Source: a virus
Taxonomy: Duplodnaviria > Heunggongvirae > Uroviricota > Caudoviricetes
Length of the DNA: 43,077 nucleotides
Strand: one strand, 5' to 3'
IMG/VR virus record: IMGVR_UViG_2563366968_000005
Coordinates: 1-43,077 of that record
Shown: one piece after another, positions 13,486-19,400 of the stretch
Position numbering within the stretch: position 1 is the stretch's first letter
How the letters are laid out: each line of letters begins with the position of its first letter
Program-made: the position numbers

Positions 13486-16400
13486 TAAGTAACACCGCTA
13501 TTTTCACAATGGACATTCGTCCTACGTCGCTGACAAAGCGAGTCCCAATATATCTGACCAACTAAGGCCATATGCGTTTCCACGCATACCTTTCAACTAA
13601 CTATTCACTATTGGAAATCTTAAGAAATGGAAAGAACAAGTTACAGCAAACTATCACAGCGTGACGTTGATCGCGCAGAAACAGATTTACTTATCAATCT
13701 GTCAGCTATTACCCAGCGCGGTCTGGCAAAGATGATTGGCTGTCATGAATCGAAGATAAGCAGAACGGACTGGAGATTTATTGCTTCGGTCTTGTGTGCT
13801 TTCGGAATGGCATCAGACATCAGTCCGATTAGCAGGGCTTTTAAGTATGCGCTTGATGGAATCACCAATAAAAAACGCCCGGTGTGCAAGACCGAGCGTT
13901 CTGAACAAATCCAGATGGAATTCTGAGGTCATTACTGGATCAATCCACAGGAGTAATTATGACAAAACAACTCAGTCCTTACCAGGACAAAATTCACAAA
14001 CACATACTACGTGATCGCTTCCTGTCCAGCTTCAAGCAGCCTGGTCGATTCCGGGCTGAGTTGGAAAAAGTGAAGCTGATGCAGAAGGAGAAAGGTCATG
14101 AGTAATCTTGCAACCGTAACACATTTAAGGCCTTCACAACGGCCTGTGGAGCGTCGTGTGGCAGAAGTTGAAGATGGTTATACCCGTCTTGCAAATGCCC
14201 TGTATGAAGAGCTTATCGGCGCAGATTTAACAAAAAATCAGAGTAAGGTTGCCCACGCCATATGCCGTAAAACATACGGATACGGTAAAAAGATGGATCG
14301 CATCTCTGATAGTCAGTTAGCTCAAATTACCAGGCTGCCAAGACAGAAGGTAAACAAGGCCAAGAATGAGCTTATCGCGATGAAGGTAATCCTTCGCGAA
14401 GGCCAGCAAATCGGGCCTAACAAGAACATCGAGGAATGGCAAATCGAAGGGTGTCACTACTCTGGTGATAATGTCACTGCATTGGTGACAAAAAGTGTCA
14501 CCAAAACGGTGACAGCGCTGTCACCAAAACAGGGACACACAAAAGAAACTATTACAAAAGAAAAAAGAAATAATAAAAACACTATGTCCGAAAGTGTTCG
14601 GACGGAGTGTGAAAAATCATCTGACCGTCACGAAGAAACCGACAAGGCATTCGAGGAAATATTCTGGTGTGCAGGCATGCGGAAAGCCGGGAAAAAAAAC
14701 GCAGCTTCGGCATTCAGAACACAGTTCAGGGAATGGCGTAAAACTACCAGGGGTACGGCAAGCGAGTTTGCCACGATGCTGGCAGAAGACATCGCATGCA
14801 GGAATGGTAAGCAGTTCGGATTCGACAGGTTGTTACCATCGAGCTACTTGAACGGTCAGCGCTGGAACGACGAAAAGCCAGAAACCATTCAACCACAATC
14901 CAAACCATCATCCGCAATCACCGTATCGAAAACTGGCTACGTGTTTTTCGACAGGTGAACCATGAAATCAAAAATCAAATCGCTACTGGTCGCTGGTTAT
15001 AACCACGGCTGGTTAAGTATTTCGTTTGTCGATTTCTGGTTTAAAAATCTCAATCTGAGGGAATCATGACGCCAAGTGAACTCAGTGACCTGCTTTGGGC
15101 GCAGGTTGACAGGGTGGCTCCGCACCTGTTGCCAAACGGCAAGAAAGAGGGGCATGAGTGGGTTGCCGGTAACGTCAACGGTGACAAGGGAAACAGCCTT
15201 AAGGTCAACCTTAGCGGCAAGAAAAAATGGGCTGATTTCGCTGAGGGAGACGGCGGTGACATGCTTGATTTGTGGATGGCATGTCGTGGAATTAACCTGC
15301 ATCAGGCTATGCAGGAAGCGAAAGCATTTCTCGGTATCAAGGATGACGATCACCATTTCGATGCCAGACGTGAGAAGAAATTCTCCAGACCTGATCGCAA
15401 GAAAATCGCCCGCTACGTTACCAGAACAGAATCCCATCTTGAGTACCTGCAATCGCGTGGCATATCGCCAGAAATCGTAAAGCGCTACGAGGTTGTCAGC
15501 GGCAAGGTGTGGAATGGAGAGCGGGAACTGGATGCTCTGGTGATTCCGTACAAACGCGATGGTGAGTTGTTGCAGGTCAAGCGAATCAGCACTGAGCGCC
15601 CGGACGGGAAGAAAGTCATTATGGCAGAAGGTGATTGCGAACCTTGCCTGTTCGGATGGCAGGCTCTGGACGCTGGCGTGAGGGCGGTTGTGCTTTGCGA
15701 AGGCGAAATTGATTGTATGAGCTATGCGCAATACGGCATCTCGGCGTTATCCGTGCCGTTTGGTGGCGGGAAAGGCGCTAAGCAACAGTGGATTGAGTTT
15801 GAGTATCACAACCTCGACAGGTTTGAGGAAATATTCATCTCGATGGACGTTGATGATGTTGGTCGTGAAGCCGCAAGGGAAATCGCAAGCCGACTCGGTG
15901 AACATCGTTGCCGTCTTGTTACTCTGCCGTACAAAGACATCAACGAATGCCTGATGAACGGTGTTACCGAGGATGAAATCTGGCAGTACATCGGCACGGC
16001 ATCCTACTTCGATCCTGAAGAACTCTACAGCGCGCGAGAGTTTTACCAGGACACTATCAACGCTTTCTACGGCAAGCAGCAGTATCTGTTTAATCCACCG
16101 TGGGAATCTCTGGCAGATAAATTCCAGTTCCGTGAGGCCGAGTTGACGCTGGTCAATGGTGTGAACGGTCACGGAAAAACGGAGGTTGTCGGGCATATGG
16201 CACTTGAGGCAATGCGTCAGGGTGTGAAGACGTGCATCGCGTCACTTGAGCTGAAGCCTGGTATTCTCCTTAAGCGCCTTACCCGTCAGGCGACGTGCTG
16301 CAAGATGCCGCCAGTGCTGGAAATTGACTCTGCATTTAAATTTTATGACGAAAGACTTTGGGTGTTTGGCCTGACCGGAACGGCGAAAGCCGACAGGCTG

Positions 16401-19400
16401 ATCGAAATATTCGACTACGCTCGCCGCCGATACGGGATCCAGTTATTCATCATCGACAGCCTGATGAAATGTGGCATAGGCGACGATGACTATAACGGGC
16501 AGAAGGCGTTTGTTGACTCGATTTGCGACTTCAAAAACAAAACAAACTCCCACGTCATTCTCGTTACTCACTCGCGAAAAGGAGACAGCGAAGAAAAACC
16601 AACCGGGAAAATGGACGTAAAAGGCTCTGGAGCGATAACAGACCTGACAGACAACCTTTTCATCATCTGGCGTAACAAGGCTCGCGAGAGAGCGTTACAG
16701 AGAGTTCAGAGTGGTGAAAAGATGTCAGAGAAGGACGAACAGCTACTGGCGTCTCCTGCATCTGTTTTGATGCTTGAAAAACAACGTAACGGCGAAGGTT
16801 GGGAAGGTGGTGTCCCGTTGTTCCTTGACGAGCAATCGCACCAGTTCCTGCAACTTGAATCAGGATCGCCATATAGCTACATCGCCAATATGCCGAAATC
16901 GGAATATGACGAGGCGTGGCGACAGGAAAACGTGACGGAGTATTAAATGACCATCTACATCACTGAGCTAATAACAGGCTTGCTGGTAATCGCAGGCCTT
17001 TTTATTTGGGGGAGAGTAATTGGAGGATTTAAGAAATGAGTACGATAGCTGAGCTTGTCAGGGCTAATTTTCGTGAAGAGTTGGTGCGTTGGTATCGGTA
17101 TCGTTCATCGTCAAGTTTGCCGCTTGATGAGTTGTATGAGCATTCACCTGCCGCACGACGCTATCCGCGTGACCGTGTTCTTCGGCGGTTGTTCAGACTC
17201 AACAATGAGTTTCAGCGCAACAGAATTATCCGGAGTCTGGATTTAAAGTGAAGGAGTGAGCATGAGCGACCTATCATTAACCCAGCCAAAGCTAAAAGAA
17301 TGTCCGTTTTGCGGCGGTAATGCTCGTCTGTGGGTTGAGGCCGGAATAAATATTGATGTGTGGGGCTATGCAGAATGTGACCTCTGTGAAGCCAGGGGGG
17401 CATGGGCACCATCAGTTGCTGCGGCGGCTGAAAAATGGAACCGGAGAGCAGGAGATGAAGCAAACCTTTCTGCTTCGCAACGAAGCAATCAGAAATAACG
17501 CCATAGACGCCATTCTCTCACTACCCATCGACGACAAGTCACCCCACGAAGTCCACGTTAGAGAACCCAAACGCAGCAAAGCGCAGAATGACCGTATGTG
17601 GCCGATGCTGAACGATGTTTCGCGTCAGGTGCTATGGCATGGTCAACGGCTGGCGCCGGAAGACTGGAAAGACCTGTTCACTGCCTTGTGGCTTAAGACC
17701 AAAAAAATGGAGCAAAGAAGTGCGCCTGGTATCGACGGTGGCGTTGTTATGCTTGGCGTTCGTACCAGCAAAATGCGAAAGGCCAGCATGACTGAGCTTA
17801 TCGAAATCATGTTCTGGTTCGGCTCAGAGCGCAACGTGCGGTGGAGTGATGACTCCCGGCGAGAGTATGAATGGTCACAACGAAAAGGGAAGGCTGCATG
17901 ACTATCAAATCAAATACGCCAGCACACGACAAGGACTGCTGGCAAACGCCGCTTTGGCTTTTTGATGCACTGGATATTGAGTTTGGATTCTGGCTGGATT
18001 CGGCAGCGAGCGACAAAAATGCTCTGTGTGCTCACTGGCTAACTGAGGCCGACGACGCGCTCAATTCTGAGTGGGTAAGCCACGGTGCAATCTGGAATAA
18101 CCCACCGTACAGCAATATCAGGCCGTGGGTGGAAAAAGCCGCTGAGCAGTGCATACAACAGCGACAGATGGTAGTGATGCTTGTGCCAGAGGATATGTCA
18201 GTCGGATGGTTCAGCAAGGCTCTGGAGAGTGTCGACGAAGTTCGCATTATCACTGATGGACGGATTAATTTTATCGAACCATCGACAGGGCTGGAGAAGA
18301 AGGGAAACAGCAAAGGCTCAATGCTGCTGATTTGGCGACCGTTCATCAGTCATCGACGGATGTTTACTACCGTATCCAAAGCGGCATTGATGGCGATCGG
18401 GCAGGGCGTCAGGAGGGCGGCATGAGACGACAGCGACGAAGTATCACCGACATCATCTGCGAAAACTGCAAATACCTTCCAACGAAACGCTCCAGAAATA
18501 AACGCAAGCCAATCCCAAAAGAATCTGATGTAAAAACCTTCAACTACACGGCTCACCTGTGGGATATCCGGTGGCTTAGAGAACGTGCGAGGAAAACAAG
18601 GTGATTGACCAAAATCGAAGTTACGAACAAGAAAGCGTCGAGCGAGCTTTAACGTGCGCTAACTGCGGTCAGAAGCTGCATGTGCTGGAAGTTCACGTGT
18701 GTGAGCTCTGCTGTGCAGAACTGATGAGCGATCCGAATAGCTCAATGTACGAGGAAGAAGACGATGGCTAAACCAGCGCGAAGACGATGTAAAAACGATG
18801 AATGTCGGGAATGGTTTCACCCTGCATTCGCCAATCAGTGGTGGTGCTCTCCAGAGTGTGGAACCAAGATAGCACTCGAACGACGAAGCAAAGAACGCGA
18901 AAAAGCGGAAAAGGAAGTAGAGAAGAAACGACGACGAGAGGAGCAGAAACAGAAAGATAAACTTAAGATTCGAAAACTCGCCTTAAAGCCCCGCAGTTAC
19001 TGGATTAAACAAGCCCAACAAGCCGTAAACGCCTTCATCAGAGAAAGAGACCGCGACTTACCATGTATCTCGTGCGGAACGCTCACGTCTGCTCAGTGGG
19101 ATGCCGGGCATTACCGGACAACTGCTGCGGCACCTCAACTCCGATTTGATGAACGCAATATTCACAAGCAATGCGTGGTGTGCAACCAGCATAAAAGCGG
19201 AAATCTCGTTCCGTATCGCGTCGAACTGATTAACCGGATCGGGCAGGAAGCAGTAGACGAAATCGAATCAAACCATAACCGCCATCGCTGGACTGTCGAA
19301 GAGTGCAAGGCGATCAAGGCAGAGTACCAACAGAAACTCAAAGACCTGCGAAATAGCAGAAGTGAGGCCGCATGACGTTCTCAGTAAAAACCATTCCAGA

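What the first reader, a model, noticed from the sequence alone, without database searches (positions are those of the whole stretch)
14098..16946. Replication module pairs a lambda-type O N-domain and internal iterons with a primase-helicase instead of lambda P
The O N-terminal domain and the palindromic GGTGACA…TGTCACC iterons inside the gene are lambda-like in layout. The O C-terminal domain is divergent and the next large gene is a 626-aa Toprim/P-loop helicase fusion, not a P-type helicase loader. This implies replication without recruiting host DnaB through P, and a co-evolved interface between the O C-domain and the helicase. A 34-codon ORF (14962-15069) is wedged between them with overlapping stop and start codons.
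Basis: partly seen in the sequence, partly recalled or inferred. Interest (0 to 1): 0.4.

Follow-up and report, generated by a model that had tools for sequence, protein, structure and literature searches.

The report
ES18-type lambdoid replication module
This prophage pairs a lambda-like origin-binding protein, with the origin inside its own gene, with a phage T7 gene-4-like primase-helicase instead of lambda's helicase loader P; the arrangement is real but was annotated in phage ES18 in 2005 and is very common in enterobacterial prophages.

Summary
Window 14098-14958 encodes an O-type initiator (49% identical to lambda O residues 1-155). Four iterons, an AT-rich tract and a palindrome lie inside the gene. 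A 35-aa ORF (14962-15069) follows, then a 626-aa Toprim plus SF4-helicase fusion (15066-16946) that matches T7 gp4 structures at E=3e-23. No P, DnaC-like or other DnaB-like gene is found in the window.

It is not new. The segment is about 98% identical to mEp043, Sf101 and vB_EcoP-720R6. It is the ES18 gp59/ori/gp60/gp61 module, which the 2005 GenBank record and later papers describe.

- The iteron register homologous to lambda is TGTCAC-N-GGTGACA. The quoted palindromes are junctions between neighbouring iterons.
- The O C-domain is unrelated to lambda's, not a divergent copy.
- The small ORF has 35 codons and overlaps only the helicase start.

Added here:
- Natural mosaics join at the AT-rich tract, so the O C-region travels with its downstream partner.
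- The O C-core is an unannotated helical domain. It is widespread and fused to many winged-helix N-domains.
- Partner type correlates with a short C-terminal tail, not with the core.

DnaB/DnaC independence remains an inference.

The parts
14098..14958 (+). O-type replication initiator, 286 aa. It has a winged-helix N-domain (aa 1-~115), a disordered linker encoded by the origin (aa ~118-163), a helical C-core (aa ~176-262) and a C-terminal tail (aa 263-286, ending ...SAITVSKTGYVFFDR).
   Evidence: Pfam Phage_rep_O and TIGR01610. 49% identical to lambda O aa 1-155. The C-part aligns with no mismatches or gaps to ES18 gp59 from aa 181 to the end. AlphaFold2 model: pLDDT above 93 for aa 176-262 and below 50 for aa 118-163.
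14452..14537 (.). Four 19-nt iterons with consensus TGTCAC-N5/6-GGTGACA, at 14452-14470, 14472-14490, 14496-14514 and 14519-14537. These are the presumed O binding sites.
   Evidence: Repeat families D1/D2 and inverted repeats. They align in register with the four iterons annotated in lambda. The palindrome pattern occurs twice against 0 expected.
14538..14580 (.). AT-rich tract (CACAAAAGAAACTATTACAAAAGAAAAAAGAAATAATAAAAACAC). It is the presumed DNA-unwinding element and also the mosaic joint between the O N and O C modules.
   Evidence: Almost identical to the lambda and ES18 tracts. Similarity to lambda ends here and ES18/phi24B-type sequence begins: the Stx-phage matches start at query position 675, which is window ~14574. 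The protein-level joint is TKETITKEKR.
14579..14610 (.). Imperfect palindrome to the right of the AT-rich tract (ACACTATGTCCGAA / TTCGGACGGAGTGT).
   Evidence: Inverted repeat I6, 14-nt arms, 86% complementary. It is shared with ES18 but not with lambda.
14962..15069 (+). Conserved 35-aa ORF (the ES18 gp60 family). Its stop overlaps the primase-helicase start (ATGA). Function unknown.
   Evidence: PHROG 21848 at E=4e-26. It is exactly 35 aa and ends at the helicase start in 14 of 18 diverse modules, with consensus MKSxIKxLLIAGYNHGxLSxxFVxxxFxKLxLRxx, and is absent in 3. Two alleles keep the reading frame.
15066..16946 (+). 626-aa bifunctional primase-helicase. It has a DnaG-like N-region without zinc ligands (aa ~26-143), a Toprim domain (aa 209-296) and an SF4 RecA-type helicase domain (aa ~355-595), and it ends in ...EYDEAWRQENVTEY.

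Best explanation
This is the ES18-type replication module of lambdoid phages.

Shown:
- The module has an O-type initiator whose gene contains a lambda-style origin: four iterons, an AT-rich tract and a palindrome.
- The initiator's C-terminal half is a different domain from lambda's.
- A conserved 35-aa ORF follows, translationally coupled to a T7 gp4-like primase-helicase.

Inferred mechanism:
1. After prophage induction, pR transcription produces O, the 35-aa protein and the primase-helicase.
2. The O N-domain binds the four iterons and destabilises the neighbouring AT-rich tract, as in lambda.
3. O recruits the phage's own hexameric helicase directly, instead of docking a P-DnaB complex. 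The contact is most likely O's class-specific C-terminal tail (...ITVSKTGYVFFDR), held by the helical C-core.
4. Like T7 gp4, this helicase loads without a DnaC or P-type loader and makes its own primers.
5. The host Pol III holoenzyme then does the synthesis, probably with the SSB encoded at 7519-8025.

If this is right, initiation needs neither host DnaB/DnaC nor DnaG.
For: The origin anatomy is in register with lambda.

No P, DnaC-like or second DnaB-like gene is found in the window.

Linkage in close relatives: of 80 IMG/VR loci carrying this O C-region, 79 carry the primase-helicase immediately downstream. The exception is a truncated contig.

Natural mosaics joined at the AT-rich tract:
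- window = N(window type) + C(ES18 type) followed by the primase-helicase
- ES18 = N(lambda type) + C(ES18 type) followed by the primase-helicase
- phi24B = N(HTH_36 type) + C(ES18 type) followed by the primase-helicase
- PhiR12_1 = N(window type) + C(lambda type) followed by P and Ren

Across 20 diverse modules the last 16 residues of O co-vary most strongly with the helicase half. Spearman correlations are 0.81 for the tail, 0.71 for the core and 0.56 for the N-domain. The tail motif differs by partner class.

Established knowledge, not tested here: the lambda O C-part binds P, and T7 gp4 assembles on ssDNA without a loader.
Against: - No experiment on this module was found.
- The O C-core family also occurs next to DnaB-type helicases, DnaC/IstB-like loaders, P-like proteins and no replication partner at all. 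It may therefore contact a host factor or DNA instead of the helicase.
- The co-variation is confounded by linkage and shared ancestry.
- The primase N-region lacks the four zinc ligands that T7 gp4 needs for template recognition.
- The residue aligned with the T7 arginine finger R522 is Lys in all seven family members aligned.
- How a gp4-like helicase would couple to host Pol III is unknown.
Confidence: 0.65

Rival explanations
1. The O C-core recruits host DnaB, directly or through a host factor, as O-only lambdoid modules must. The primase-helicase would then be an auxiliary enzyme, for example for later sigma or recombination-dependent replication, for restart, or for priming only, and not the origin helicase.
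For: The same core domain (35-50% identical) sits in initiators followed by DnaC-like loaders, P-like proteins or no replication gene. Zheng et al. 2025 report 34 of 314 lambdoid phages with only an O homologue.
Against: In all 79 informative close relatives and all 20 more distant ones with a full-length O C-region, the primase-helicase follows at once. When the window-type N-domain is joined to a lambda-type C-domain, P replaces the primase-helicase. The tail is specific to the partner class.
Confidence: 0.15
2. The protein works only as a helicase. Its primase part is inactive because the zinc-binding ligands are lost, as in metazoan Twinkle, so host DnaG still primes.
For: There is no CHC2/Cys4 pattern in aa 1-100, although this region is DnaG-like (TIGR01391, aa 26-143, E=2e-9). 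T7 gp4 lacking its zinc domain cannot prime on templates (established knowledge).
Against: All Toprim acidic residues (E212/E214, D261/D263, D291) are invariant across T7 gp4 and seven family members as little as 60% identical. The N-region itself is well conserved, which argues for selection on function.
Confidence: 0.15
3. The 35-aa protein is the real adaptor or loader between O and the helicase, a functional analogue of P, and O does not touch the helicase directly.
For: It is exactly 35 aa, conserved in 14 of 18 diverse modules, and always translationally coupled to the helicase start.
Against: It is absent from the Xenorhabdus and Providencia modules (L090, L099, L104), which keep the O tail and the helicase. 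The window and phi24B alleles differ at 23% of nucleotides between nearly identical flanks, which is unusual for an essential bridge.
Confidence: 0.05

Closest known systems
Salmonella phage ES18 replication module (gp59 O-like, ori, gp60, gp61; GenBank AY736146). Also in epsilon34, g341c, SEN22, Sf101, mEp043, vB_EcoP-720R6 and Stx2 phages phi24B and Min27.
   Same: Gene order is the same. The O C-region aligns without mismatch or gap from aa 181 to the end. The same 35-aa ORF and 626-aa primase-helicase are present, and the origin lies inside O. mEp043, Sf101 and 720R6 are about 98% identical over the whole segment.
   Different: ES18 and epsilon34 carry a lambda-specificity N-domain with TCCCTC..GAGGGA iterons. 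The window carries the mEp043/Sf101-type N-domain with TGTCAC..GGTGACA iterons. phi24B has an HTH_36 N-domain and an intein in the helicase Walker A motif.
Phage lambda O/P/ori
   Same: The O N-domain is 49% identical. The four iterons are in register, the AT-rich tract is nearly identical, and the position after cII is the same.
   Different: The O C-domain is unrelated. There is no P or Ren. A phage-encoded primase-helicase stands in place of the recruitment of host DnaB by P.
Phage T7 gene 4 primase-helicase (SF4)
   Same: The Toprim and RecA-type helicase domains are fused in the same order. The catalytic residues align, and PDB entries 5ikn/6n7i match at E=3e-23.
   Different: There is no Cys4 zinc ribbon. 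Lys stands at the position of Arg522. The C-terminal extension is different. In T7 the partner is the phage polymerase gp5, whereas this window shows no polymerase gene: the early region was Pfam-scanned, but the late region only had its ORFs listed. T7 replication does not start from an O-type initiator.
Phage P22 gene 18 / gene 12 module (O-like initiator plus DnaB-type helicase)
   Same: An O-family initiator is followed by a phage-encoded replicative helicase that replaces host DnaB (described in PMC8022706).
   Different: P22 gp12 is a DnaB-type helicase without a primase and works with host DnaG. Here the helicase is gp4-like and fused to a Toprim primase, and no DnaB N-terminal domain was detected.

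Membership tests
Lambda O-type initiator with in-gene origin | N-terminal Phage_rep_O winged-helix domain | tested here: met
   Pfam PF04492 at E=1e-37 and TIGR01610 at E=2e-30. 49% identity to lambda O aa 1-155.
Lambda O-type initiator with in-gene origin | Four roughly 19-bp iterons with internal dyad symmetry inside the O gene, followed by an AT-rich tract | tested here: met
   They are in register with the iterons annotated in NC_001416.
Lambda O-type initiator with in-gene origin | Lambda-type C-terminal (P-binding) domain | tested here: not met
   No BLASTP similarity beyond aa 157. hhalign probability 0.1%.
Lambda O-type initiator with in-gene origin | Partner gene P (PF06992) downstream | tested here: not met
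   Best tblastn E-values were 0.44 for lambda P and 0.30 for the P-like probe. No PF06992 hit in the ORFs scanned.
Lambda O-type initiator with in-gene origin | Sequence-specific binding of O to the iterons and origin unwinding | not testable with these tools
   Needs EMSA or footprinting and a P1-nuclease or KMnO4 assay.
T7 gp4-like SF4 primase-helicase | Toprim catalytic acidic residues (E, DxD, D) | tested here: met
   CEGEID, MDVDDVG and KDINE align with T7 E157, D207/D209 and D237. They are invariant in the 8 sequences aligned.
T7 gp4-like SF4 primase-helicase | SF4 helicase motifs: Walker A GKT/S, catalytic Glu, Walker B Asp and the His motif | tested here: met
   GVNGHGKT (K371), E395, IIDS (D464) and THSRK (H502). 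T7 gp4 matches at E=3e-23.
T7 gp4-like SF4 primase-helicase | N-terminal Cys4 zinc-binding domain | tested here: not met
   No Cys pairs occur in aa 1-100. The region is DnaG-like by TIGR01391 (aa 26-143, E=2e-9) but lacks the ligands.
T7 gp4-like SF4 primase-helicase | Arginine finger (T7 R522) | tested here: inconclusive
   The aligned residue is Lys (DVKGSG) in all seven family members aligned. Whether Lys can substitute was not tested.
T7 gp4-like SF4 primase-helicase | Hexamer formation, 5'-3' unwinding and primer synthesis | not testable with these tools
   Needs the purified protein.
ES18-type lambdoid replication module | ES18 gp59-type O C-region, then a 35-aa gp60, then a gp61 primase-helicase, contiguous and on the same strand | tested here: met
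   The same order is seen in 79 of 80 IMG/VR loci.
P22 gene 18/12-type module | DnaB-type helicase with a DnaB N-terminal domain (PF00772) and no primase domain | tested here: not met
   There is no PF00772 hit, and a Toprim domain is present.

The most novel reading that the evidence does not exclude
The C-terminal half of this initiator may be a two-part adaptor that is widespread and so far unannotated. One part is a conserved helical core of about 85 aa (motif FExFWxAGMRK...FGFDKLHPTTYLNGERWxDE). It has no Pfam family and no structural relative, and its general role is unknown, for example binding the unwound strand or a host factor. The other part is a short C-terminal peptide that is exchanged together with whichever helicase or loader is encoded next: gp4-like, DnaB-like, DnaC-like or P-like. 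On this reading the conserved 35-aa protein would be a dedicated cofactor of the gp4-like helicase.
Probability: 0.3. Interest if true: 0.5.

Novelty: already known. Interest (0 to 1): 0.2.

Why it matters
The module itself is ordinary. It was annotated in 2005, and parts of it match in 2086 of 5426 complete E. coli genomes, including the Stx2 phages of O157:H7.

What has not been studied is how it works:
- How does a lambda-style O-some hand a gp4-like helicase onto the origin without a loader?
- How does that helicase work with host Pol III?

Because this module drives replication of Shiga-toxin phages such as phi24B and Min27, its host-factor requirements affect toxin gene dosage after induction.

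The natural 2x2 mosaics (window, ES18, PhiR12_1, lambda) and the class-specific O tails give ready-made constructs for testing initiator-helicase specificity.

Tried and rejected
1. Lambda O C-domain as a remote homologue of this C-domain. Rejected: hhalign probability 0.1%.
3. The O C-core as a domain specific to primase-helicase partners. Rejected: relatives sit next to DnaB-like, DnaC-like and P-like genes, or next to no replication gene.
4. A P, DnaC or DnaB gene hidden elsewhere in the window. Not found.
5. The search for homologous proteins with the O C-region returned mostly partial, near-identical proteins and added little. The exhaustive representative search was the informative one.
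6. Pfam at E up to 10 on the helicase N-terminus, its C-terminal extension, the O C-region and the 35-aa ORF gave nothing usable.
7. Literature searches found descriptions of the module but no biochemical or genetic study of it. The ES18 genome paper itself is not in the searchable library.
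Full report
**Context.** The window is a lambdoid prophage next to ybhC.
- It carries a lambda-type integrase and an early-left operon with Ea22-like, Abc2, SSB, Rad52-like and N genes.
- The immunity and early-right genes are cI (12474-13187, minus strand), cro, cII and a DUF2740 ORF.
- The region under study comes next. It is followed by a nin region with DUF7301, Lar, NinB, Dam, NinG, a phosphatase and Q.

**Check of the observation.**
- The 286-aa protein has a Phage_rep_O N-domain (Pfam E=1e-37, TIGR01610 E=2e-30). 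It is 49% identical to lambda O over residues 1-155 and shows no similarity after that.
- The 626-aa protein has Toprim_2, AAA_25 and DnaB_C hits and matches PHROG 239 'DNA primase/helicase' at E=1e-171.
- It matches the solved T7 gp4 structures over residues 192-539 at E=3e-23, and Twinkle more weakly.
- In an alignment with T7 gp4 and seven relatives as little as 60% identical, these residues are invariant: the Toprim Glu, DxD and Asp, the Walker A Lys, the catalytic Glu, the Walker B Asp and the motif His.
- Two differences from T7 stand out. The N-terminal ~100 residues are DnaG-like (TIGR01391, aa 26-143, E=2e-9) but have no zinc-ligand cysteines. The residue aligned with the T7 arginine finger is a conserved Lys.

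**The origin.**
- Half-sites GGTGACA/TGTCAC cluster at 14450-14537.
- Aligned with lambda and ES18, four 19-nt iterons (14452, 14472, 14496, 14519; TGTCAC-N5/6-GGTGACA) lie exactly in register with the four iterons annotated in the lambda record.
- The AT-rich tract that follows (14538-14580) is almost identical to lambda's. After it comes a palindrome (14579-14610) that is shared with ES18 but not with lambda.

**Is it known?** Yes.
- The 3.15-kb segment is about 98% identical to phages vB_EcoP-720R6, mEp043 and Sf101, 92% to SEN22 and about 88% to ES18, epsilon34 and g341c.
- From about 14574 onward it is 97-98% identical to Stx2 phages phi24B and Min27, among others.
- Parts of it match in 2086 of 5426 complete E. 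coli genomes. 168 of those match over at least 80% of the length.
- The ES18 GenBank record already annotates gp59 'similar to lambda gpO', a rep_origin 'similar to lambda ori', gp60, and gp61 'putative primase/helicase; similar to phage T7 gene 4'.
- The epsilon34 paper (PMC2629481) and the Anderson typing phage paper (PMC10307801) describe the same module. [quoted passage not shown]
- No biochemical or genetic study of it was found.

**No P or other loader.**
- tblastn with lambda P, a P-like protein, a DnaC-like protein and a DnaB-like helicase found nothing in the window apart from the primase-helicase itself.
- Pfam scans of 27 early-region ORFs found no loader.

**Linkage of the O C-region to the helicase.**
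- In 80 IMG/VR loci with this C-region, 79 have the 35-aa ORF and the primase-helicase directly downstream. The remaining one is cut by the contig end.
- The natural mosaics are more informative:
  - ES18 joins a lambda-type N-domain and iterons to this C-region and helicase.
  - phi24B joins an unrelated HTH_36 N-domain to them.
  - PhiR12_1 joins the window-type N-domain and iterons (99.1% nucleotide identity) to a lambda-type C-domain followed by P and Ren.
- The joint in all cases is the conserved AT-rich tract, which encodes TKETITKEKR.
- So the origin-binding specificity and the helicase-recruiting specificity assort independently, and each C-region stays with its partner.

**What the O C-region is.**
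- An exhaustive HMMER search found 366 representative clusters with a core of about 85 aa (O residues ~178-262; motif FExFWxAGMRK...FGFDKLHPTTYLNGERWxDE), usually at the C-terminus of 240-350-aa proteins.
- Of 100 members scanned, N-domains were HTH_36 (17), Phage_rep_O (11), DUF1376 (10), DnaD_N (7), Lin1244_N (4) and others. No Pfam family covers the core.
- In 80 loci from reference genomes, the gene that follows varies:
  - gp4-like primase-helicase in 20 loci, all Enterobacterales, with the alignment running over the whole C-region
  - DnaB-type helicase in 6
  - DnaC/IstB-like AAA+ in 6
  - P-like in 4
  - no recognisable replication gene in others
- The core is therefore not specific to the primase-helicase.
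- The sequence after the core is class-specific:
  - Primase-helicase-linked proteins end in ...ITVSK(T/S)G(Y/L)VF(F/I/L)D(R). A variant, ...EVF(V/I)..., occurs in the three modules whose helicase halves are most divergent.
  - DnaC-linked proteins end in GFAExxYGxTxTPxWAKDL.
  - P-like-linked proteins end in ...NVDPSLIPEYLR.
  - DnaB-linked proteins carry an extra 90-120 residues.
- Across 20 modules, similarity of the last 16 residues tracks the helicase half best. Spearman correlations are 0.81 for the tail, 0.71 for the core and 0.56 for the N-domain. Linkage and ancestry contribute to these numbers, so they are supportive only.

**The 35-aa ORF.**
- It is a real, conserved gene. It is exactly 35 codons in 14 of 18 diverse modules and always ends at the helicase start. 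Its core is conserved (LLIAGYNHG...FV...F.KL.LR), and it matches PHROG 21848.
- It is absent from two Xenorhabdus modules and one Providencia module, so it is probably accessory.
- The window and phi24B alleles differ at 24 of 105 nt, while the flanking O and helicase sequences differ at 13/300 and 4/300. This local divergence is unexplained.

**Mechanism, and how sure.**
- Shown: the anatomy, the homologies, the absence of a loader gene and the modular co-inheritance.
- Inferred (confidence about 0.65): O binds the iterons and opens the AT-rich tract as in lambda. The O C-terminal tail recruits the phage's own gp4-like hexamer, which loads itself and primes. Host Pol III then elongates.
- Rivals are listed separately: the core recruits host DnaB and the phage enzyme is auxiliary; the primase is inactive; or the 35-aa protein is the adaptor.

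**Verdict.** Interest is low. The only open points are mechanistic ones that nobody appears to have tested.

Noticed in passing
L002 (phage phi24B, HM208303) 3100-4140; also L010 and L026: In phi24B the gene annotated 'P' is the same primase-helicase carrying a 342-aa insertion right after GHGK of the Walker A motif. The insertion ends in ...THN followed by T and contains LAGLIDADG-like motifs (LLGDGSL, LLETDGYV), so it looks like an intein. The window copy has no insertion.
   Followed up: partly
L036 4498-4992; the same 491-bp shift in L048, L051, L064, L071 and L077: A 164-aa ORF is inserted exactly between the 35-aa ORF and the primase-helicase start. It was not domain-scanned here. RefSeq annotates an HNH endonuclease or an AP2-domain protein somewhere in this region of several E. 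coli genomes, so it may be a free-standing homing endonuclease.
   Followed up: partly
window 14962-15066 versus L002 ~1891-1995: The 35-aa ORF exists as two alleles that differ at 23% of nucleotides, embedded in flanks that differ by 1-4%. This could be a very local mosaic patch or diversifying selection on a tiny gene.
   Followed up: partly
window 14920-14955 and L001 (lambda) ~1615-1683, alignment A5: The extreme C-termini of the otherwise unrelated lambda-type and ES18-type O proteins look loosely alike (VTASK...TDWIYGVDL versus ITVSKTGYVFFDR). This may be chance or a shared docking motif.
   Followed up: no
window 13959-14105: A 48-aa DUF2740 ORF lies between cII and O and overlaps the O start by 8 nt. 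PHROGs labels its family 'tail protein', which is probably a mis-annotation given its position in the early-right operon.
   Followed up: no
window 7209-8733, minus strand: The early-left operon encodes the phage's own SSB (7519-8025), a Rad52/22-type annealing protein (8026-8733) and the anti-RecBCD protein Abc2 (7209-7505). The SSB may serve the phage replisome.
   Followed up: partly
window 2545-3773: Two adjacent plus-strand ORFs lie just inside the integrase end of the prophage. The second one (2982-3773) has transposase domains (rve, rve_3, HTH_21); the first (2545-2910) was not scanned. Together they look like an IS element.
   Followed up: no
L140-L144 (Roseovarius MAG OX638333.1): Five copies of a 245-aa initiator with the same C-core (identical match statistics) lie in one chromosome. 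Each has a DnaB-like gene upstream instead of downstream, which suggests a repeated prophage-like or GTA-like element.
   Followed up: no
L087, L092, L093, L096, L098, L102, L122, L128: Initiators with the same C-core but no recognisable helicase or loader gene downstream (Vibrio and Robiginitomaculum loci and unclassified proteobacterial MAGs). They have long low-complexity tails, several ending in ...TIDLDxxDFYNVSG. They fit the unexplained 'O-only' lambdoid modules mentioned by Zheng et al. 2025.
   Followed up: partly
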